Below are positions 7,013 through 46,680 of a DNA stretch of 64,000 bases, in pieces. The number at the start of each line of letters is the position of its first letter. Positions within the stretch are counted from its first letter, which is position 1. A program made the position numbers and the translations under genes. Origin of the DNA: an uncultured Syntrophomonadaceae bacterium (GTDB lineage Bacteria; Bacillota; Dethiobacteria; DTU022). Where the stretch lies: positions 14,808-78,807 of the forward strand of contig CAYTER010000003.1 in the NCBI GenBank assembly GCA_964436815.1, given 5' to 3'. Below the pieces are notes generated by a model. It worked only from the letters and a program-made list of their open reading frames with translations. It had not been told where the DNA came from and ran no database searches.

Positions 7013-9091
7013 ATGAGCAAGGAAGCACAGTTGGAGCAGATCAGGAATATTGGTATTGCCGCTCATATTGATGCCGGTAAGACGACCACCACAGAACGGA
7101 TTTTATTTTACACCGGTCGCCTGCACAAACTCGGTGAAGTTCATGATGGCAATGCAACCATGGACTGGATGGTTCAGGAGCAGGAACGCGGTATAACCAT
7201 TACCAGCGCTGCTACATCATGCCGGTGGAGAGAAAGTTTAATTAATATTATCGATACACCCGGACACGTGGACTTTACGGTCGAGGTTGAACGTTCACTC
7301 AGAGTGTTGGATGGCATGATTGCTATCTTCTGTGCCAAAGGTGGGGTTGAGCCTCAGTCTGAAACAGTATGGCGACAGGCAGACCGCTACCATGTCCCGC
7401 GTTTGGCCTATATCAACAAGATGGATATGGTCGGGGCCGATTTCTTTAACGTTTTACGCCAGCTGCAGGAAAGACTCCATGCTCAGGCCCTTCCCCTGCA
7501 ACTGCCAATCGGATCGGAAAGCGAGTTTTCCGGAGTAGTTGATCTGATTACCGAGCGGGCCATTGTCTATGAAGACGATCTGGGGACGCACAGCACGGAA
7601 ACTGATATCCCCGAGACCATGAAAGAACAGGTTGCCGATTACCGGGAGAAGATCCTTGAACTGGTTGCCGATTATGACGATACCGTAATGGAAAAGTATT
7701 TTAATGGTGAAAAAATCAGCCCCGAGGAATGTTACCGGGCTTTGCGCAAGGCCACTATTTATCACAACCTGGTCCCGGTGCTCTGCGGATCTTCATATAA
7801 GAATAAAGGTGTGCAGCCGCTGCTTGATGCTGTAGTACATTACCTGCCTTCACCAATCGATGTCGGCGCGGTTAAGGGGTTTAACCCGCATAACGGGGAA
7901 GAGGATTTTCGCCTGCCGGCAGTTGATGCTCCCTTCGCGGCATTGGTCTTTAAGATCATGGTTGATCCATTCGTTGGTAAACTGGCTTTTGCCCGCATTT
8001 ATTCAGGTTCCCTGGAGAAGGGCTCAGTTGTCCTTAATGCCGCTCGCCAGAAAAGACAACGCATCAGCCGTCTGATCCGGATGCATGCCAACTTCAGGGA
8101 AGAGATCGACCGGGCTCAGACTGGCGACATTCTGGCCATTATCGGGCCGAAAGAGATCAGCACCGGCGACACCCTGTGCGCTCTCGACAAACCGATCATT
8201 TTAGAAAATATTCAGTTTCCGGAACCGGTTATCTCGGTAGCCATTGAGCCGAAAACCAAGGCCGACCAGGATAAAATGTCTTTGTCCATGCAGCAGTTAG
8301 CTGAAGAAGATCCTACTTTCCAGGTTCACAGCGATCAAGATACGGGGCAGACAATTATCTCCGGTATGGGCGAGCTGCACCTGGAGATAATCGTTGACCG
8401 CCTGCTGCGTGAATTTAAGGTACAGGCCAATGTCGGTAAACCGCAGGTGGCTTATAAGGAAACAATTTTAAGCGAAACCAAAGCTGAAGGACGATTTGTC
8501 CGTCAGTCCGGAGGACGCGGCCAGTTCGGCCATGTGGTAATTGAGCTTTCGCCGCTGGAACCTGGCGGAGGTTTTGCCTTTGAGAGTAAAATTGTTGGCG
8601 GAGTTATTCCCAAAGATTTCATTCCCGCAGTGGAATCAGGTCTGAAAGAAGCGGCTCTTAACGGCATTCTAGCCGGATACCCGGTTATTGACATTAAGGC
8701 GACCCTGGTAGACGGTTCATACCATGAGGTTGACTCGTCTGAACTGGCCTTCAAAATTGCTGCTTCCAAAGCCCTGAAAGCAGCGCTTGCCAAGGCTAAG
8801 CCGGTGCTGTTGGAACCGGTAATGAAAGTGGAAGTATCTGCTCCGGAAGAATATCTGGGTGATATTATCGGTGATTTTACCGGACGGCGCGGCCGGATCC
8901 TCGGCACGGAAATGAAAAGCGGTCAGCAGGTGGTCAGGGGAGTTGTTCCCCTGAATGAAATATTTGGTTACGCCACGGAACTGCGTTCGCACACCCAGGG
9001 CCGCGGAGTTTATAATATGGAGTTTTACCGTTACGAAGAGGTACCACAGAGCATCGCTCAGAAAATAATCACTCAAAGTGTTACTTATTAA
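7013..9091 (+). CDS. fusA: Elongation factor G
   Basis: 692 aa. G domain motifs [17 protein letters not shown] and NKMD are present, with EF-G domains II-V following. Confidence 0.96.
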
Positions 9092-9110: not shown

Positions 9111-10313
9111 TTGGCTAAGAAGAAGTTTGAGCGGACGAAGCCGCACGTAAACGTAGGGACGATTGGTCACGTGGACCACGGCAAGACGACACTGACGGCG
9201 GCGATGACAGCATGTTTATCGAGTGCCGGACTGGCAAATAAGACCTCGTTTGACGAGATCGACAAGGCGCCGGAAGAAAAAGAAAGAGGCATAACCATTG
9301 CGACAGCGCACGTGGAATATGAAAGTGAAAACCGCCACTATGCGCACGTAGACTGCCCCGGGCACGCTGACTATGTGAAGAACATGATCACCGGAGCGGC
9401 GCAGATGGACGGAGCGATCCTGGTTGTATCGGCTGCGGACGGCCCGATGCCGCAGACCCGGGAACACATTTTACTTTCCCGTCAGGTAGGCGTTCCCTAT
9501 ATTATTGTCTTTTTGAACAAAGCCGATATGGTGGACGACCCTGAACTCTTAGAATTAGTCGAGATGGAAGTAAGAGACCTCTTAAGCGAATATGAATTCC
9601 CCGGAGACGACACCCCGGTGATTACCGGTTCAGCCCTTAAAGCAGGCGAATGCGGCTGCGGTGGTAAAGACTGCGAATGCTGCAAACCGATCTGGGACTT
9701 AGTAGACGCGCTTGACAACTATATTCCGATGCCCGAGCGTGAAAAAGACAAGCCCTTCTCCATGCCGATCGAAGACGTCTTTTCGATTACCGGCCGCGGC
9801 ACCGTGGTCACCGGCAGAGTGGAAAGAGGCCAGATTAAAGTTGGCGATGAAGTCGAAATCGTCGGTTTTGAAGAAAAGCCGCGCAAAACCGTAGCCACCG
9901 GTGTGGAAATGTTCCGCAAGCTGATGGATTACGCTGAAGCAGGCGACAACATTGGTGTCCTCTTACGCGGGATAGACCGTGAATCGGTAGAGCGGGGTCA
10001 GGTCTTGGCCAAGCCCGGCACGATCAAGCCGCACACTGACTTTAAAGCCGAAGTCTACGTGCTGAAGAAAGAAGAAGGCGGCCGCCACACCCCGTTTTTC
10101 CAGGGTTACCGTCCGCAGTTCTACTTCCGCACCACCGATGTTACCGGCAATATCAACCTGCCTGAAGGTATGGAGATGGTCATGCCCGGTGACAACGTGA
10201 ACATGGATATTCAGCTGATCACCCCGATCGCGATCGAGGAAGGCGTGCGTTTCGCGATTCGCGAAGGCGGCCGGACCGTCGGCGCCGGAGTGGTCACCGC
10301 TGTCAAAGAGTAA
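9111..10313 (+). CDS. tuf: Elongation factor Tu; Cys-rich insertion ([11 protein letters not shown]) in domain 1
   Basis: TTG start with GGAGGTG RBS. Motifs [14 protein letters not shown] and NKAD are present. 400 aa. Confidence 0.96.
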
Positions 10314-10373: not shown

Positions 10374-10417
10374 ACGGAGCAGCTCTGATTGAATCAGGCG
10401 ATAAGGAGGATTCATTA

Positions 10418-10726
10418 ATGGCTAGTCAAAAAATCAGGATTAGATTAAGAGCCTTTGATCATCATTTACTGGACCAGTCTGCCGGTAAAATAGTAGAAAC
10501 GGCGCGCCGGACGGGAGCAGATGTTTCCGGGCCGGTACCTTTACCGACAGAGAGAAGCTTATATACAGTTATCAGGGCGCCGCATAAATACAAAGACTCC
10601 CGGGAGCAATTCGAAATGCGCACTCATAAGCGTCTGATTGACATTCTGGAACCAACCCCGAAAACAATCGACGCTTTGATGAGGCTTGATTTGCCTGCCG
10701 GTGTGGACATTGAGATTAAGCTCTAG
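10418..10726 (+). CDS. rpsJ: 30S ribosomal protein S10
   Basis: A canonical [15 protein letters not shown] start with AAGGAGGA 7 nt upstream. The ORF extension back to 10346 has no support. Confidence 0.95.
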
Positions 10727-15527: not shown

Positions 15528-15896
15528 ATGATTCAAAGCGAGACAATCTTAAACGTAGCTGACAACTCGGGAGCCAAAAAGATCCTTTGTATCAGGGTCT
15601 TGGGTGGATCGAAGCGCAAATCAGGCCGTATCGGTGATCTAATTGTAGCTTCAGTAAAAGAAGCCACCCCGGGTGGAGTTGTTAAAAAAGGAGAAGTGGT
15701 CAGGGCTGTGATCGTGCGGACCAAGAGTCGGCTCAACCGCAAGGACGGCTCGCATATCCACTTCGACGATAATGCAGCAGTGATTATCAATGAACAGAAT
15801 AATCCGCGCGGGACCCGTATTTTCGGGCCTGTTGCCCGTGAGCTGAGAGAAAAGGAATTTATGAAAATTGTTTCCCTCGCCCCGGAAGTGATTTAG
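15528..15896 (+). CDS. rplN: 50S ribosomal protein L14
   Basis: A canonical [17 protein letters not shown] start at 15528 with GGAGAGG RBS. Confidence 0.95.
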
Positions 15897-15940
15897 TGGT
15901 TCATTTTGGAGGTGGCAAAGAACCGGTGGAAGTGAAAAAG

Positions 15941-16255
15941 ATGTCTGTTCGACGGGGAGATAAGGTGTTAGTTCTCTCCGGGAAAGATAAAGGTAAAAAA
16001 GGCAAGATCATTGCCACTTTTCCCCGTATGGGCAAGGTTAAGGTGGAAGGTGTCAATATGATCAAAAAGCACGCCAAACCAACCCGCAAGGTCCCCCAGG
16101 GTGGAATCAGGGAGATGGAAGCGGCCATGCCGGCGTCTAAGGTGATGGTAATTTGCCCGGCATGCAGCAAACCGTCGCGGATCGCCAAGAAAGTTCTTCC
16201 TGATGAACGCCGGGTTCGCATCTGTCGGAAGTGCGGCGAATCGCTGGATAAGTAA
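15941..16255 (+). CDS. rplX: 50S ribosomal protein L24 (uL24) with a C-terminal CxxC…CxxC zinc-ribbon-like extension
   Basis: The [24 protein letters not shown] domain starts at ATG 15941. The C-terminal region reads …CPACSKP…CRKCG. Confidence 0.92.
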
Positions 16256-16853: not shown

Positions 16854-17039
16854 ATGGCCAAGAAATCGTTAATCGCCAAGGCCAAAAGAGAGCCAAAATT
16901 CTCAGTCCGCCATTATAATCGCTGCCATATCTGCGGCCGACCGAGGGCTTATTTGCGTAAATTCGGCCTGTGCCGCCTTTGCTTTCGTCATCTGGCCAAC
17001 GAGGGAAAAATACCTGGAATCAAAAAAGCCAGCTGGTAG
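16854..17039 (+). CDS. rpsN: 30S ribosomal protein S14 type Z (zinc-binding)
   Basis: 61 aa with CxxC…CxxC. Confidence 0.95.
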
Positions 17040-19606: not shown

Positions 19607-20863
19607 TTGCTGGAAACAGTACGCACTGCATGGCGGATTAAAGAATTAAGACAACGTATCCTATTTACCCTGGCCATGTTTGTGGTCTTCCGGGTCGGTT
19701 CGGCTATCCCCGTTCCCGGGGTTGATCCTTCCCGCCTGGCGGAGTTTTTCCAGTCGGATACAATCTTTGGCTTTGTCAATATTATCGGCGGCGGCAACTT
19801 GGAGAACTTTACTATATTTGCCCTGGGGATTATGCCGTATATTAACGCTTCGATTATCATGAACCTGTTGACAATCGTTATCCCCAAGCTGAAAGAGTGG
19901 AGTCAGGAAGGCCCCGAAGGGCGTAAGAAAATATCGCAGATCACCCGTTACGGAACGGTGGTGATTGCCGTGATTCAGGCCCTTGGGCTTTCAACTTTAA
20001 TTGCCGGCGAAGCGGTTCTTGACAGGACAGTTCTTTCTTATGTTACGATCATCATTTCGATGACAGCCGGAACAGCATTCCTGATGTGGATGGGTGAACT
20101 GATTACCGAGAAGGGGATTGGCAACGGTATATCGCTGATCATCTTTGCCGGAATCGTAGCCGGATTCCCGATCGGGGTGGCGATGGCAGCCGAACAGTAT
20201 CGTTTTGGACAGATCAACATGCTGATCATCGGTGTCGTTCTCCTGGTCCTGCTGGGTCTGATAGTGGGCATTATCGGCCTCGATCAGGGGCAACGCCGGA
20301 TCAATGTTCAGTATAGTAAGCGCGTGGTCGGCCGGAAGATGTACGGCGGTCAGGCAACGCACATTCCGATGAAAGTAAACCAGGCCGGGGTTATTCCGGT
20401 AATCTTTGCCTCGGTGCTGCTCAGTTTTCCGCAGACGATGGTCAGCTTTATACAGCATCCGATTGCCCAGAGGCTGGCCGACATGCTTAGATGGGGCAGC
20501 AACCTGAACCTGGTTTTATATATTGTCCTGATTATACTCTTTACCTATTTCTACACCGCGGTGCAGTTTGATCCGTTCCAGGTGGCCAGCAACATCAAGA
20601 AGTATGGCGGATTTATTCCGGGCCTGCGACCGGGACGTCCGACTGCCGAGTATCTGGCCCGGGTAACATCAAGACTGACGACAGCCGGAGCATTCTCTCT
20701 TGCTTTTATTGCCGTCTTCCCGATTGTTCTGGAGAGGATTACCGGCATGAATATTGTTTTTGGTGGAACGGGCCTGATTATTGTGGTCGGTGTTGTGCTT
20801 GAAACCTTTAAACAGATTGAGAGCCATATGCTGATGCGCAGTTATCGCGGCTTCATGAAATAG
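19607..20863 (+). CDS. secY: Preprotein translocase subunit SecY
   Basis: TTG start. 418 aa with 10 TM segments and the SecY signature. Confidence 0.95.
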   Translation: MLETVRTAWRIKELRQRILFTLAMFVVFRVGSAIPVPGVDPSRLAEFFQSDTIFGFVNIIGGGNLENFTIFALGIMPYINASIIMNLLTIVIPKLKEWSQEGPEGRKKISQITRYGTVVIAVIQALGLSTLIAGEAVLDRTVLSYVTIIISMTAGTAFLMWMGELITEKGIGNGISLIIFAGIVAGFPIGVAMAAEQYRFGQINMLIIGVVLLVLLGLIVGIIGLDQGQRRINVQYSKRVVGRKMYGGQATHIPMKVNQAGVIPVIFASVLLSFPQTMVSFIQHPIAQRLADMLRWGSNLNLVLYIVLIILFTYFYTAVQFDPFQVASNIKKYGGFIPGLRPGRPTAEYLARVTSRLTTAGAFSLAFIAVFPIVLERITGMNIVFGGTGLIIVVGVVLETFKQIESHMLMRSYRGFMK

Positions 20864-20872
20864 AGACTATCT

Positions 20873-21628
20873 ATGATTAAGTTAAAATCGAAACGGGAAA
20901 TCAGTTTAATGAGGGAAGCAGGCAAGATTGTTGCCTCGGTGCTTGCAGAGCTTGAAAAAGTAATCAAAGCCGGCATAACCACCGCAATGCTGGACAAGAT
21001 TGCTGAAAAAGAGATTCGCAGGCATAAAGCAGAGCCGGCTTTCCTCGGGTACCATAATTTCCCCGCATCGATTTGCACCTCTGTTAATGAACAGGTGGTG
21101 CATGGCATACCCGGGTTGCGCAGGCTTGAAGAGGGCGATATAATCAGCATTGATGTCGGGGTTCGCCTCAAAGGCTACTACGGCGATGCTGCCGCTACTT
21201 TTCCGGTAGGCGTGATTGATCAAAAAGCCCGGAAATTGATTGATGTTACCAGAACCTCTTTGCAGAAGGCTGTTGAGGCGATGCGCTCCGGCGCCAGACT
21301 CTCCGATCTTTCTCATGCGGTCCAGACTTACGTTGAGGAGCACTCCCTAGCGGTAGTGCGTAACTACGTCGGTCATGGGATCGGGGAAGAGATGCATGAA
21401 GAGCCGCAGGTGCCAAATTTCGGGTTGCCGGGACGCGGCCCCGTATTGCAACCGGGAATAGTGCTCGCCATCGAGCCGATGGTTAACATCGGCACCTGGG
21501 AAGTACAGGTGCTGGAAGATCAGTGGACAGTTGTAACTGCCGACGGTAGCCTTTCCGCTCATTTTGAGCATACGGTGGCACTGGGTGAAAACGGACCCGA
21601 AGTACTGACCTCTTCCAACCTTGGTTAA
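20873..21628 (+). CDS. map: Methionine aminopeptidase type I
   Basis: 251 aa MetAP1 with metal-binding D, D, H, E, E residues. It directly follows secY with no adk gene between them. Confidence 0.94.
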   Translation: MIKLKSKREISLMREAGKIVASVLAELEKVIKAGITTAMLDKIAEKEIRRHKAEPAFLGYHNFPASICTSVNEQVVHGIPGLRRLEEGDIISIDVGVRLKGYYGDAAATFPVGVIDQKARKLIDVTRTSLQKAVEAMRSGARLSDLSHAVQTYVEEHSLAVVRNYVGHGIGEEMHEEPQVPNFGLPGRGPVLQPGIVLAIEPMVNIGTWEVQVLEDQWTVVTADGSLSAHFEHTVALGENGPEVLTSSNLG

Positions 21629-21641
21629 AGGGGGAGAAGCA

Positions 21642-21929
21642 ATGGTTGAGCTAAAACCGGGACAGCTGGTCCGTTCTCTGGCCGGACGGGATAAAGGTAA
21701 ACACTACCTGGTTCTTCAGGAGCTGGATTCGCGAAATGTGCTCCTGGTTGACGGGCGCAGCCGAACCCTGGCCAAACCGAAGAAGAAGAATAAGGCTCAC
21801 CTTCAGCACTATGATCGCAGAGCCGATCTGGGAGAACAGGACGGAACGGAAAAATTCAGCGACAGTCTCTTAATCAGGTTACTGAAAGAAATGGTTCCGG
21901 TTGAGGGTTTTCCCGACAAGGAGGTTTAA
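21642..21929 (+). CDS. KOW domain-containing RNA-binding protein
   Basis: A 95-aa product starting at ATG 21642 with a GGGGGAG RBS. It sits in the Clostridia-typical position between map and infA. Confidence 0.8.
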
Positions 21930-22173: not shown

Positions 22174-22287
22174 ATGAAGGTGAGGCCCTCAGTAAAAAAA
22201 ATGTGCGAGAAATGTAAAATCATCAGGCGTAAGGGCAGAGTTGTGATTATCTGCCAGAATCCTAAACATAAACAACGTCAGGGTTAA
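22174..22287 (+). CDS. rpmJ: 50S ribosomal protein L36 (zinc-binding C+ form)
   Basis: A 37-aa product, [37 protein letters not shown], too short for the ORF track. AAGGAGG RBS. Confidence 0.93.
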
Positions 22288-23159: not shown

Positions 23160-23786
23160 ATGGGACGCCACACTGAAGCAGTATGCCGTTTATGCCGCAG
23201 AGAAAAAGATAAGCTTTACCTGAAAGGGGATCGCTGTTATACCGATAAATGTGCTGTTGTTCGCCATGCTTATCCGCCTGGAGAGCACGGCCAGGGACGC
23301 CAGAAATTTTCCGAATACGGACAGCAGCTGCGCGAAAAACAGAAAGCCCGCCGGATTTACGGGGTGTTCGAAAGACAGTTCCGTCGCTATTTCAAGGAGG
23401 CTGATCGCCGTCGTGGAGTTACCGGTGAAATTCTTCTGCAGTTACTGGAAAGCCGTCTGGATAGTGTAGTTTATCGCATGGGACTGGCCAGGTCGCGCTC
23501 GGAAGCAAGGCAGCTTATTAATCATGGTCATTTTCAGGTCAACGGCCGGAAGGTTGATATTCCTTCATTCCTGACCAGGATCGGCGATGAGGTTGCCGTG
23601 CGCGAGAAAAGCAGGGCTAAGCCGGTGTTCAAGCAGATTATCGAGGAACACGACCAGCAGGGAATAGTGGACTGGCTGGAAGTAGATTATGAAAAATTGC
23701 AGGGTAAAGTGATCAGGATTCCACAGCGTGAAGAAATCGATGTGCCGGTAACCGAGCACCTGATCGTTGAACTTTATTCCCGTTAA
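23160..23786 (+). CDS. rpsD: 30S ribosomal protein S4 (Thermus-type with N-terminal Cys4 zinc finger)
   Basis: [23 protein letters not shown] motif, then the S4 domain. Confidence 0.95.
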
Positions 23787-45390: not shown

Positions 45391-45510
45391 ATAGTAGCAC
45401 CAAGCTGGTATCGCAAAGGGGGTGCTCGATGAATTAGTGATGGGTAGATAAGAGTTTAAGAACAACTAAGTTAGTTGGGCAGTAAGTATCATAAAGAGGA
45501 GGAGAATAGT

Positions 45511-46680
45511 GTGAAAAGAAAGTGCAATATTTTAATGCTGATTTTTGTTGTTATGATATCCGGGTTTCTGGTAATCGGCTGTGCGCCGAGTACCCCTGCC
45601 GAACCACCGGCAGAGGATGGTGAGTTAGTTTTAGAGAAAATAGTTATTGGCTGGACTCCCCCCGACATAACAGGGGTGTTCCAGACTGCAACTGAGTACT
45701 TCGAGCTGGCTGCTGAAGATGCCGGTAAAAGTGGTATTGAGGTTGAGGTGATTTCACGCTCCCCAGCTACCCACGTTGCTTTTGCCGACCAGGTAGCCAT
45801 TATTGAAGATTACATTACCATGGGTGTTGATGTAATCGCTATTTCGCCCACTGAGGTAGAAGTAGTCAAACCAGCGCTCCAGCAGGCTAACGCTGCGGGG
45901 ATCCCTATTATTATGGTTAACCTGTTAGAGCCAATTGATGGCGTGGATATCGCCTGTTATATCGGGTTCGACAACTTTGATGGCGCAGCCATCACAGCCT
46001 ATTCATTAGTAGATTACTTCGGTGGTCCCGGGGTCTTAGGTGAGGGTGATAAAGTTGACGCGACACCTGAAACTTATCTTGACCTGGCCTGGTGGGAAGA
46101 TGTTTATGCCGGTGTTGATCCTGCAGCATCGGGTATCGAAGCGCGCGGTGCGATTATTGAAGGCGTAGCTGGAGGCTTTTTCTCCGTTACCCGTGTGGAA
46201 GGCTTCCGCTCAGTAATCGACGAGTACCCGGGTATAGTTGAAGTAATGGAGCCAATTCCAGCTGACTGGAACAGAGAAAAAGGTATTGCAGCTGCAGAAG
46301 ATATCCTGGCAGCCAACCCTGAAGGAACCCTGGACTGGATCTGGGCAGCCTCTAATGAAATGGGTATGGGAGCCAGGCTTGCCTGTGAATCTGCAGGCAG
46401 GACCGAAGTTGCAGTATTTACAAATGACGTAACACCAGAATCAGTTCTTGAATTTATCAATAAAGATCGCATAGTGGCAGAAACAACTCACGGCTTTCCT
46501 GATTGGGGATGGTTTGGAACGAAGTATGCTGTAATGTTGGCACTTGGGTTGGATGTACCGCAATTTGAAGACATTCGCCCACGTACTGCTTACAAAGATA
46601 ACAGCTTCATGTTCTACCCAGAACCTGTATTACCACCAATTGATTGGGATGAAATTTTGGTCAATGCAGGTTTGAAGTAA
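45511..46680 (+). CDS. Sugar ABC transporter substrate-binding lipoprotein (CUT2/RbsB-like type I PBP)
   Basis: GTG start with AAGAGGAGGAG RBS and a VIGC lipobox. Periplasmic sugar-binding fold, about 390 aa. Confidence 0.82.
   Translation: MKRKCNILMLIFVVMISGFLVIGCAPSTPAEPPAEDGELVLEKIVIGWTPPDITGVFQTATEYFELAAEDAGKSGIEVEVISRSPATHVAFADQVAIIEDYITMGVDVIAISPTEVEVVKPALQQANAAGIPIIMVNLLEPIDGVDIACYIGFDNFDGAAITAYSLVDYFGGPGVLGEGDKVDATPETYLDLAWWEDVYAGVDPAASGIEARGAIIEGVAGGFFSVTRVEGFRSVIDEYPGIVEVMEPIPADWNREKGIAAAEDILAANPEGTLDWIWAASNEMGMGARLACESAGRTEVAVFTNDVTPESVLEFINKDRIVAETTHGFPDWGWFGTKYAVMLALGLDVPQFEDIRPRTAYKDNSFMFYPEPVLPPIDWDEILVNAGLK

What the first reader, a model, noticed from the sequence alone, without database searches (positions are those of the whole stretch)
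9630..9700. Cysteine cluster [11 protein letters not shown] inserted in EF-Tu domain 1
Canonical EF-Tu reads …[29 protein letters not shown]… at this point. Here it reads …[34 protein letters not shown]…, with five Cys in 11 residues and about 5 extra residues. This looks like a metal-binding knuckle and is not a general feature of EF-Tu. Other translation proteins in this cluster are also zinc-ribbon forms.
Basis: seen in the sequence. Interest (0 to 1): 0.55.

Follow-up and report, generated by a model that had tools for sequence, protein, structure and literature searches.

The report
EF-Tu with conserved four-cysteine metal loop
The main translation elongation factor EF-Tu of this bacterium carries a short four-cysteine loop, most likely a structural zinc site, that model-organism EF-Tu and every solved EF-Tu structure lack, yet it is conserved in EF-Tu of more than fifteen bacterial phyla and seems never to have been described.

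Summary
The str-operon tuf gene (9111-10313, +) encodes GSALKAGE-C181-G-C183-GGKD-C188-E-C190-C191-KPIW. This is 5 residues longer than E. coli-type EF-Tu at that point. Only four of the five Cys form the conserved unit, C-x-C-G-x3-C-x2-C. Cys190 replaces the usual Trp and is specific to the window's clade.

The motif is not an artefact and not local. 117 of the 120 closest homologues keep it. These came from Bacillota, Desulfobacterota, anammox Planctomycetota, Nitrospirota, Aquificota, Patescibacteria, Actinomycetota and other phyla. About 4 % (5/120) of an untargeted metagenomic EF-Tu sample has it.

Cys codons vary synonymously, spacers vary, and rare substitutions are Asp or His. An AlphaFold model places the loop confidently (pLDDT about 90) between two helices just after the G5 (SAL) guanine-binding motif. 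No solved EF-Tu structure has the motif, and seven literature searches found no description.

Best reading: a structural Zn(Cys)4 loop, a "C+" form of EF-Tu, lost repeatedly in evolution. The canonical DAEWEAKI loop aligns with the second half of the knuckle. Metal binding is inferred and untested. A remote Cys35 co-occurs with the loop and is unexplained.

The parts
9111..10313 (+). tuf, elongation factor Tu (400 aa, TTG start), the canonical fusA-tuf-rpsJ copy
   Evidence: ORF and translation. TIGR00485 737.9 bits against cut-off 522.4. 72-79 % identity to solved EF-Tu structures. EF-G lies upstream at 7013-9091 and S10 downstream at 10415-10726.
9630..9638 (+). G5 guanine-base motif S174-A175-L176, immediately upstream of the Cys loop
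   Evidence: Read from the sequence. Invariant in alignment A1 and in 114 Cys4 EF-Tu genes.
9651..9683 (+). Cysteine loop C181-G-C183-G-G-K-D-C188-E-C190-C191. The conserved ligand set is C181, C183, C188 and C191; Cys190 is a clade-specific extra at the usual Trp position.
   Evidence: Codons read directly. Four Cys invariant or nearly so in 117/120 close homologues and in 113 EF-Tu genes from many phyla. AF2 model: helix 175-181, loop 182-191, helix 192-204, with block pLDDT 92/89/92.
9651..9665 (+). First half of the knuckle (C-G-C-G-G, residues 181-185), the five residues absent from E. coli-type EF-Tu
   Evidence: A 5-residue gap at this position in HMMER alignments to PDB EF-Tu. 59 of 77 Cys-less EF-Tu have gaps at columns 181-183.
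9669..9695 (+). Second half of the knuckle and start of helix F (D-C188-E-C190-C191-K-P-I-W), positionally homologous to the canonical D-A-E-W-E-A-K-I-L of short-loop EF-Tu
   Evidence: Column-by-column comparison of Cys4 and Cys-less sequences. The decayed intermediate L161 (KIDGEWFNSVIKL) is next to the Cys4 sequence L009 (KPDCEWCGPIIKL).
9213..9215 (+). Cys35 in helix A, a remote cysteine that co-occurs with the Cys4 loop
   Evidence: Cys at this column in 27/61 Cys4 EF-Tu, from 8 of 16 independent clades, against 1/77 Cys-less EF-Tu. Fisher p = 8.6e-11 on raw counts. Its role is unknown.

Best explanation
This is the organism's housekeeping EF-Tu in a 'C+' form. Four cysteines (C181, C183, C188, C191) in a 10-residue loop probably bind one structural Zn(II) tetrahedrally. 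The loop joins the short helix after the G5 (SAL) guanine-binding motif to the long helix that leads to domain 2. The metal would staple the ends of these two helices, so a metal cross-link replaces the compact helix-turn-helix of E. coli-type EF-Tu. This would stabilise the base-binding side of the G domain, and with it the fold, possibly thermal stability, and perhaps nucleotide affinity. The core GTPase and tRNA-delivery cycle would not change. The form is old and widespread. Many lineages appear to have lost it by deleting the first half-knuckle (CGCGx) and replacing C188 and C191, leaving the canonical ...[11 protein letters not shown]... loop. This parallels the zinc-binding (C+) and zinc-free (C-) forms of ribosomal proteins. 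Shown here: the motif, its conservation, its distribution, its position in the predicted fold, and its positional homology to the short loop. Inferred: metal binding, zinc as the metal, the stabilising role, and the direction of evolution.
For: (1) The four Cys are invariant while the residues between them vary. 117/120 closest homologues at 83-96 % identity keep C-x-C-G-x3-C-x2-C. In 114 EF-Tu genes from many phyla, position 186 is R/E/D/K/A/P, 189 is E/P/Q/A and 190 is W/N/K/A/S, and each Cys codon is a TGC/TGT mixture. (2) The few substitutions seen are other metal ligands: Asp at C183 (P0161, P0169) and His at C181 (P0005). This fits a metal site, not disulfides. (3) The AF2 model gives pLDDT of about 90 for residues 171-200 although the model is mediocre overall. 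Each Cys pair sits at the end of a helix flanking a 10-residue loop. (4) The same gene cluster encodes Cys4/Cys3His forms of S14, L36, S4 and L24, so the organism uses zinc-type translation proteins generally. (5) It is the canonical fusA-tuf-rpsJ gene here and in most other carriers, so it must be a fully functional EF-Tu. (6) The Cys4 class is almost as diverse as all EF-Tu (mean distance 0.27 against 0.32) and appears in at least 12 places on a loop-masked tree. Cys-less nearest neighbours show decayed versions of the loop.
Against: No metal was measured, and model coordinates could not be inspected, so tetrahedral geometry is unverified. The first pair is C-x-C rather than the usual C-x-x-C, and four ligands within 11 residues is unusually compact. 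The segment C183-x4-C188-x2-C191 also matches the spacing of the plant-type [2Fe-2S] ferredoxin loop (my own knowledge). The co-occurring Cys35, and Cys190 in this window, are not explained by a simple Zn(Cys)4 site. The direction of evolution (loss or gain) is not rooted. The genome scan required all four Cys, so it cannot show how often ligands are lost. The Asp/His evidence rests on three sequences.
Confidence: 0.65

Rival explanations
1. Redox switch. The thiolates of the loop, with or without zinc, are oxidised under oxidative or thiol stress. Zinc is released or disulfides form, the region next to G5 is distorted, and EF-Tu is reversibly inactivated. Translation elongation would then be coupled to redox state, in the manner of the C-x-C / C-x-x-C zinc centre of Hsp33.
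For: The C-x-C plus C-x-x-C pairing is the Hsp33-type arrangement (my own knowledge). The extra cysteines Cys190 and Cys35, the latter strongly associated with the loop across 8 clades, suggest thiol chemistry beyond four ligands. Redox control of EF-Tu exists elsewhere: PDB 8yly and 8ym3 are titled 'Structural basis of Elongation factor Tu in regulating photoinhibition in Synechococcus'. Many cultured carriers are strict anaerobes, namely Moorella, Desulforudis, Caloramator, Thermosulfurimonas, Desulfocarbo and anammox bacteria.
Against: Carriers also include MAGs labelled as lineages I take to be largely aerobic (Thermoleophilia, Gemmatimonadota, Acidobacteriota, Sulfobacillus) (lifestyle is my own knowledge, untested). 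A regulatory site would not be expected to be lost so often without replacement. Conservation alone cannot tell a structural site from a switch. No partner or regulon evidence was found.
Confidence: 0.15
2. An iron site. The loop binds an Fe-S cluster (for example [2Fe-2S], using the C-x4-C-x2-C segment plus C181 or C35) or a rubredoxin-like Fe(Cys)4 centre. EF-Tu would then be sensitive to oxygen or iron.
For: The C183-x4-C188-x2-C191 spacing equals that of the plant-type ferredoxin cluster loop (my own knowledge). A remote fifth Cys (Cys35) co-occurs. Carriers are enriched in anaerobic lineages.
Against: EF-Tu is among the most abundant cell proteins, so stoichiometric Fe-S loading would be very costly (my own knowledge). 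The motif is found in aerobes too. Cys35 is absent from 34/61 carriers. The other Cys-bearing proteins in the same cluster (S14, L36, S4) belong to families known as zinc forms.
Confidence: 0.07
3. No metal. The cysteines form one or two disulfides, or simply pack as small residues, to rigidify a longer loop, for instance for thermostability, as the 10-residue insertion at the same site in Thermus-type EF-Tu may do.
For: This site varies in length in all EF-Tu. The L176-Y204 spacing runs from 20 to 32 residues in the untargeted sample, including a Thermus-like long loop in L215. Several cultured carriers are thermophiles.
Against: The cytoplasm is reducing, especially in anaerobes. Asp and His replacements cannot form disulfides. 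Four strictly invariant Cys with fixed spacing over more than 15 phyla is the signature of a metal site, not of packing.
Confidence: 0.05
4. A sequencing, assembly or annotation artefact, or a degenerate paralogue.
For: None found.
Against: The frame is intact and all G motifs are present. 95-96 % identical proteins occur on many independent contigs. The motif is present in isolate genomes such as Moorella mulderi DSM 14980, Desulforudis sp. Tu-874 and Caloramator sp.. The str-operon context is canonical.
Confidence: 0.01

Closest known systems
Canonical bacterial EF-Tu (E. coli, Thermus, Thermotoga-like and reconstructed ancestral proteins; PDB 1efc, 1exm, 5w75, 6i8r)
   Same: 72-79 % identical. 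It has the same three domains, the same G1-G5 motifs and the same operon position. The second half of the loop (D-C-E-W-C-G-K-I) aligns residue for residue with the canonical D-A-E-W-E-A-K-I.
   Different: None of the solved EF-Tu sequences has the Cys cluster. E. coli-type proteins lack the five residues C-G-C-G-x. The 5w75 protein has a loop of nearly the same length (APDDPNHEAYKPI) but no Cys. Thermus-type proteins have a different 10-residue insertion at the same site (Thermus from my own knowledge; a Thermus-like loop is seen in L215).
C+ (zinc-binding) versus C- (zinc-free) forms of bacterial ribosomal proteins (S14, S18, L28, L31, L32, L33, L36)
   Same: A Cys4-type motif in a core translation protein. 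It is present in some lineages and lost in others, through Cys replacement and loop shortening, without loss of the core function. C+ S14 and L36 sit in the same gene cluster. For the concept, see the abstracts of PMC13343924 and PMC9825181.
   Different: Those are small zinc-ribbon proteins, often with a Zur-regulated C- paralogue in the same genome. Here the site is a short loop inside a GTPase domain. No C- paralogue was seen: both tuf copies of one related genome are Cys4 (P0208 and P0209). EF-Tu is not on the published lists I know of.
Zinc knuckle in the G domain of archaeal/eukaryotic initiation factor 2 gamma (a/eIF2-gamma), a paralogue of EF-Tu
   Same: It is a four-Cys metal site grafted onto the G domain of an EF-Tu-family translational GTPase, and is regarded as structural (my own knowledge).
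   Different: As I recall, it is inserted after switch 1, between strands beta2 and beta3, and uses CxxC pairs, so the location and origin differ. This was not tested here, because the papers I opened do not describe it.
Adenylate kinase LID-domain zinc site (Gram-positive Cys4 form versus Gram-negative zinc-free form)
   Same: A housekeeping nucleotide-binding enzyme that exists in a Cys4-zinc form and a zinc-free form in which the Cys are replaced by hydrogen-bonding residues. The zinc is structural and stabilising (my own knowledge).
   Different: Unrelated fold position and C-x2-C...C-x2-C/D spacing. No adk gene lies between secY and map in this window.
Hsp33 redox-sensitive zinc centre (C-x-C ... 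C-x-x-C)
   Same: It combines a C-x-C pair and a C-x-x-C pair around one zinc (my own knowledge).
   Different: In Hsp33 the two pairs are about 30 residues apart in a dedicated C-terminal domain and act as a switch. Here they are 4 residues apart, and there is no evidence of switching.

Membership tests
Elongation factor Tu (TIGR00485 equivalog) | Whole-protein score above the curated cut-off | tested here: met
   737.9 bits against a cut-off of 522.4. PRK12735 scores 754.8 against 479.
Elongation factor Tu (TIGR00485 equivalog) | G1-G5 GTPase motifs intact | tested here: met
   GHVDHGKT (19-26), RGITI with T62, DCPGH (81-85), NKAD (136-139) and SAL (174-176), read in the translation. All are invariant in A1.
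Elongation factor Tu (TIGR00485 equivalog) | Three-domain architecture and EF-Tu fold | tested here: met
   Close homologues carry PF00009 + PF03144 + PF03143. All top Foldseek hits are EF-Tu (E about 1e-52). Global TM is only about 0.55, because the domain arrangement of the model is poor (mean pLDDT 66).
Elongation factor Tu (TIGR00485 equivalog) | Housekeeping str-operon context (fusA-tuf-rpsJ) | tested here: met
   EF-G at 7013-9091, tuf at 9111-10313, S10 from 10415.
Structural Cys4 zinc site (short zinc-binding loop / knuckle) | Four ligand residues (Cys/His/Asp) in two closely spaced pairs | tested here: met
   C181-x-C183 and C188-x2-C191.
Structural Cys4 zinc site (short zinc-binding loop / knuckle) | Ligands conserved while spacers vary; substitutions restricted to other ligands | tested here: met
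   The Asp and His replacements are (only three cases).
Structural Cys4 zinc site (short zinc-binding loop / knuckle) | Four thiols converge to tetrahedral geometry in 3D | not tested
   The model is confident locally (pLDDT about 90), but the tools do not expose coordinates, so S-S distances could not be measured.
Structural Cys4 zinc site (short zinc-binding loop / knuckle) | Bound Zn(II) at about 1 per monomer | not testable with these tools
   Needs ICP-MS, a PAR assay or anomalous diffraction on purified protein.
   The first pair is C-x-C. DSSP on the model shows no strand between residues 173 and 215, only helix-loop-helix. The EF-Tu element should therefore not be called a zinc ribbon.
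C+/C- paralogue system regulated by zinc (Zur) | A Cys-less paralogue of the same protein in the same genome | tested here: inconclusive
   There is no second tuf in the 64-kb window. In one related genome both tuf copies (P0208 and P0209, same 3.54-Mb contig) are Cys4. Whole genomes could not be scanned.
a/eIF2-gamma G-domain zinc knuckle | Insertion at the same point of the G domain | not tested
   From memory it lies after switch 1, not after G5. No a/eIF2-gamma sequence was aligned here.
Plant-type [2Fe-2S] cluster loop | C-x4-C-x2-C plus a fourth Cys, in a beta-grasp ferredoxin fold | tested here: not met
   The spacing of C183, C188 and C191 matches, but the host fold is a P-loop GTPase helix-loop-helix. 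The cofactor itself is not testable here.

The most novel reading that the evidence does not exclude
The Cys4 loop, together with the co-evolving Cys35, could be a metal- or redox-sensing module on the most abundant cytoplasmic protein. If zinc-loaded at one per molecule, EF-Tu would be the largest zinc pool of these cells. It could act as a buffer or reservoir and as a thiol-based brake on elongation under oxidative stress or zinc starvation. If the loop was present in early bacterial EF-Tu, the canonical textbook EF-Tu would be a zinc-free derivative, and published ancestral EF-Tu reconstructions would have missed a metal site.
Probability: 0.15. Interest if true: 0.85.

Novelty: new variant of a known kind. 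Interest (0 to 1): 0.62.

Why it matters
EF-Tu is one of the best-studied and most abundant proteins in bacteria, at several copies per ribosome (my own knowledge). Despite this, no solved structure and no paper in the searchable library deals with a cysteine or metal site in its G domain.

A stoichiometric zinc site would change estimates of the cellular zinc quota in the organisms that carry it. These include anammox bacteria, acetogens, syntrophs, sulfate reducers and CPR bacteria, among others. It would also extend the idea of the translation apparatus as a zinc reservoir from ribosomal proteins to a factor.

The repeated replacement of the loop by the canonical short loop gives a natural experiment on how a metal cross-link is exchanged for packing interactions next to the guanine-binding G5 motif. 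It also bears on ancestral-sequence reconstructions of EF-Tu, which are this protein's best PDB matches and lack the loop.

The question is directly testable with one recombinant protein.

Tried and rejected
(1) The fragment query to the protein database returned mostly partial proteins. It was useful for finding motif variants but not for taxonomy. The full-length query gave only close relatives.

(2) The structure prediction from a shallow alignment of close relatives gave mean pLDDT 66 and a poor domain arrangement. Only the local confidence and secondary structure around the loop were used. The tools return no coordinates, so thiol-thiol distances and the Cys35-to-loop distance could not be measured. 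A second prediction was not run, because it would not have changed this.

(3) The fold search against the PDB returned only EF-Tu structures and said nothing about the loop.

(4) Seven literature searches found nothing on a Cys/Zn EF-Tu. One used literal motif strings such as ECGCGK, and one used phrases such as 'zinc-binding EF-Tu'. An eighth search, which sought sources on the a/eIF2-gamma knuckle rather than on EF-Tu, was over-constrained and returned nothing.

(5) Two papers were opened to document the a/eIF2-gamma zinc knuckle. Neither describes it, so that comparison rests on memory.

(6) The 401-aa ORF at 45475-46680 was checked as a possible second tuf. It is not one; it looks like a solute-binding lipoprotein.

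(7) The first S10 context search used an off-by-one slice and failed. It was corrected.

(8) The nearest-neighbour comparison of Cys4 and Cys-less sequences is confounded by unequal sampling: a dense genome set against a sparse metagenome set. It is used only qualitatively. The NJ tree is not rooted reliably, so no ancestral state is claimed as shown.

(9) I considered an antibiotic-binding or toxin-target site and rejected it. The known EF-Tu antibiotic sites lie at the domain 1-3 interface or in domain 2, not in this loop (my own knowledge).
Full report
**1. The observation**

The ORF at 9111-10313 (+; TTG start; 400 aa) reads ...[51 protein letters not shown].... The Cys codons are at 9651, 9657, 9672, 9678 and 9681, giving C181, C183, C188, C190 and C191. 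The protein is an unambiguous EF-Tu (TIGR00485, 737.9 bits against a curated cut-off of 522.4). It has all G motifs and lies between fusA (7013-9091) and rpsJ, in a long rpoB-rpoC-rpsL-rpsG-fusA-tuf-S10-spc-alpha cluster. HMMER alignments to solved EF-Tu structures open a five-residue gap exactly at C181-G185. By chance such a cluster is expected about 2e-3 times in a window of this size.

**2. Conservation**

The 120 closest full-length homologues are 83-96 % identical. The named ones are Dethiobacteria, 'Candidatus Darwinibacter acetoxidans' and unclassified Bacillota MAGs. Nearly all of them keep C-x-C-G-x3-C-x2-C.
- Two have Asp at the second Cys, and one lacks the loop.
- A partial protein from the fragment search has His at the first Cys (P0005).
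- The fifth Cys of the window (C190) sits where most carriers have Trp (CEWC). It is Cys in only about 25 of the 120 relatives, and in 1 of 61 in the broad set.

The conserved unit therefore has four Cys.

**3. Taxonomic spread**

114 hits in 113 loci lie in EF-Tu genes with the expected flanks; two of these genes are frameshifted in their assemblies. Five hits are false positives.

By record title the carriers include:
- Bacillota: Moorella, Pelotomaculum, Syntrophomonas, Desulforudis, Caloramator, Sulfobacillus, Tepidanaerobacteraceae, Negativicutes and Dethiobacteria.
- 'Deltaproteobacteria'/Desulfobacterota, Binatota, Deferrisomatales and Thermodesulfobacteriota (Thermosulfurimonas).
- Nitrospirota, Aquificota and anammox Planctomycetota (Kuenenia, Scalindua, Jettenia).
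- Omnitrophota, Patescibacteria/Saccharibacteria and Actinomycetota (Thermoleophilia).
- Chloroflexi, Armatimonadia, Acidobacteriota, Gemmatimonadota, Chitinophagales, Leptospiraceae, WOR-3 and Coatesbacteria.

In these genes every Cys position mixes TGC and TGT, and the spacer residues vary widely. That is residue-level purifying selection. Where the context is visible, the Cys4 gene is usually the fusA-tuf-rpsJ copy: 48 loci have both neighbours, and 27 more have one neighbour plus a contig end.

**4. Prevalence**

An untargeted sample of EF-Tu genes from metagenome contigs was drawn with a universal downstream pattern, P-F-x-x-P-[IV]-E-D-V-F. It gave 120 EF-Tu genes from many different samples. 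Five of them (L121, L136, L174, L203, L207) have the full motif, which is about 4 %. The spacing from L176 to Y204 ranges from 20 to 32 residues in that sample, with modes at 22 and 24. The window's value is 27. The site is thus a general hot spot for length variation, and the Cys4 loop is one long-loop solution.

**5. Evolution**

I masked the loop and analysed 363 columns of 138 full-length sequences. The Cys4 class is nearly as diverse as all EF-Tu: mean distance is 0.27 within Cys4, 0.32 within Cys-less and 0.31 between them. On an NJ tree the state needs 12 changes, against about 45 for shuffled labels. It forms lineage-coherent clades:
- 21 Bacillota sequences including the window;
- a clade of 10 MAGs, mostly labelled Binatus/Binataceae or delta-/Deltaproteobacteria;
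- a clade of six, mostly labelled delta-/Deltaproteobacteria or Desulfobacteraceae, that includes the isolate Desulfocarbo indianensis;
- five sequences mostly labelled Thermoleophilia or Actinomycetes, one of them (L077) labelled Deltaproteobacteria;
- a clade of five that mixes three Planctomycetota-type sequences (L034, L109 and the untitled metagenome contig L174) with two Bacillota/Firmicutes-labelled MAGs (L063, L093);
- two Saccharibacteria sequences.

There are many singletons as well.

Some Cys4 proteins have a Cys-less protein as their nearest neighbour (L009, L117, L072, L042). The clearest pair is Leptospiraceae L009 (ECG-CGKPDCEWCGPIIKL) and L161 (EEVEAKKIDGEWFNSVIKL). L161 is a decayed copy of the same loop.

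The canonical short loop aligns as [12 protein letters not shown] against ALECGCGKRDCEWCGKI. D187, E189, W190, K and I are shared, C188 and C191 are replaced, and the first half-knuckle is missing. The motif is nearly identical across phyla, which argues for one origin. One early origin with repeated loss, possibly with some transfer, is the simplest reading. The tree is unrooted, however, so the direction of change is an inference.

**6. Structure**

No solved EF-Tu structure carries the cluster. The best local match, 5w75, has a Cys-free loop of almost the same length. An AlphaFold2 model built from 32 close relatives is mediocre overall (mean pLDDT 66) but confident from residue 131 to 210. 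Block means for residues 171-200 are 92, 89 and 92. It predicts strand 170-172, helix 175-181, loop 182-191 and helix 192-204. C181 and C183 therefore end the short helix that follows the G5 SAL motif, and C188 and C191 start the long helix that leads to domain 2. This is a helix-loop-helix with two Cys at each end, not a beta-hairpin zinc ribbon. Foldseek returned only EF-Tu structures. The tools do not expose coordinates, so the geometry of the four thiols was not checked.

**7. An unexpected correlate**

Outside the loop, the columns most associated with the Cys4 state cluster at the C-terminal end of helix A (positions 34, 35, 38, 39, 40 and 42). Position 35 is Cys in 27 of 61 Cys4 proteins, spread over 8 of the 16 independent Cys4 clades. 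It is Cys in only 1 of 77 Cys-less proteins. That one is L161, the decayed-loop neighbour of L009. Fisher p is 8.6e-11 on raw counts, which overstates independence. The window has Cys35.

In P-loop GTPases the first helix packs beside the last helix (my own knowledge), so Cys35 may lie next to the site. It cannot be an obligatory ligand, because 34 of 61 carriers lack it. Its role is unexplained.

**8. Mechanism**

The most likely reading (about 0.65) is a structural Zn(Cys)4 loop. It would clamp the two helices on the base-binding side of the G domain and stabilise the fold without altering the EF-Tu cycle. The protein would be a 'C+' form of EF-Tu. In support:
- the conservation pattern (section 2);
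- the Asp and His substitutions;
- the confidently predicted loop;
- the fact that this is the housekeeping gene;
- the same cluster encoding Cys-bearing S14 (16854-17039), L36 (22174-22287), S4 (23160-23786) and L24 (15896-16255).

The rivals are a redox switch (0.15), an iron or Fe-S site (0.07), a metal-free rigid loop (0.05) and an artefact (about 0). The extra cysteines, the C-x-C pair and the ferredoxin-like C-x4-C-x2-C spacing keep the first two rivals alive.

**9. Comparison with what is known**

The protein is a member of the EF-Tu family by every feature tested. The loop works like the structural zinc sites of C+ ribosomal proteins and of Gram-positive adenylate kinase. It recalls the zinc knuckle of a/eIF2-gamma, but as far as I remember that knuckle sits elsewhere in the G domain; I did not test this. 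It is not a zinc ribbon: that feature was tested and not met. No C- paralogue arrangement was seen. Both tuf copies on one related 3.54-Mb contig are Cys4.

Seven searches of the held literature, including literal motif strings, found no description. The library lacks most subscription journals, so an older mention cannot be excluded.

**10. Verdict**

The feature is real, strongly conserved, phylogenetically widespread and apparently undescribed. It is a variant of a textbook protein. I rate it a new variant of a known kind, with interest about 0.6. The chemistry (which metal, and whether the site is structural or a switch) is open and can be tested directly with one recombinant protein.

Noticed in passing
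window 9213-9215 (Cys35 of EF-Tu); loci L006, L009, L012, L026, L042, L056, L109 and others: A remote cysteine in helix A (Cys35) occurs in 27/61 Cys4-type EF-Tu, from 8 independent clades, but in only 1/77 Cys-less EF-Tu. Neighbouring positions 34 and 38-42 also track the Cys4 state. It may pack against the metal loop or take part in its chemistry.
   Followed up: partly
window 15896-16255 (+): Ribosomal protein uL24 ends in ...[35 protein letters not shown], a CxxC...CxxC pair that looks like a C-terminal zinc ribbon. uL24 is not among the classical C+/C- ribosomal proteins that I know of. The annotated GTG start probably lies upstream of the true start (MSVRRGDKV...).
   Followed up: no
window 16854-17039, 22174-22287, 23160-23786 (+): S14 is the short 61-aa Cys4 form (CHICG...CRLC). 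L36 has CxxC...CxxxxH. S4 has an N-terminal CxxC-x12-CxxxxC cluster. The cluster as a whole uses zinc-type translation proteins.
   Followed up: partly
window 19607-21628 (+): secY (19607-20863) is followed directly by map (20873-21628). No adenylate kinase gene lies between them, unlike the usual secY-adk-map order in many bacteria.
   Followed up: no
window 21621-21929 (+): A 102-aa ORF of unknown identity ([31 protein letters not shown]..., KOW-like start) sits between map and infA.
   Followed up: no
P0001; L087; L077: Probable mislabelled or contaminant records. An 84-aa 'Klebsiella pneumoniae' partial EF-Tu is 87 % identical to the window's loop region and includes the CECC motif. A 2.6-kb contig binned as 'Candidatus Woesearchaeota archaeon' carries an anammox-like bacterial Cys4 EF-Tu. 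A 'Deltaproteobacteria' MAG contig (L077) groups with Thermoleophilia EF-Tu.
   Followed up: no
L024 and L035: Two MAG assemblies have frameshifts inside the Cys4 tuf gene just after the loop. These are probably assembly errors, not pseudogenes.
   Followed up: no
L126, L143, L154, L162, L184, L191 and others: A separate long-loop EF-Tu class without the Cys4 motif (…STSTDPNAPEY-K-C-I-W/F-E-L…) carries a single conserved Cys just before the Ile at the start of helix F (column 193). 12 of 77 Cys-less sequences have Cys there.
   Followed up: no
window 45475-46680 (+): A 401-aa ORF of the same length as EF-Tu is not EF-Tu. It has a lipoprotein-like N-terminus and resembles a periplasmic sugar-binding protein.
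   Followed up: partly
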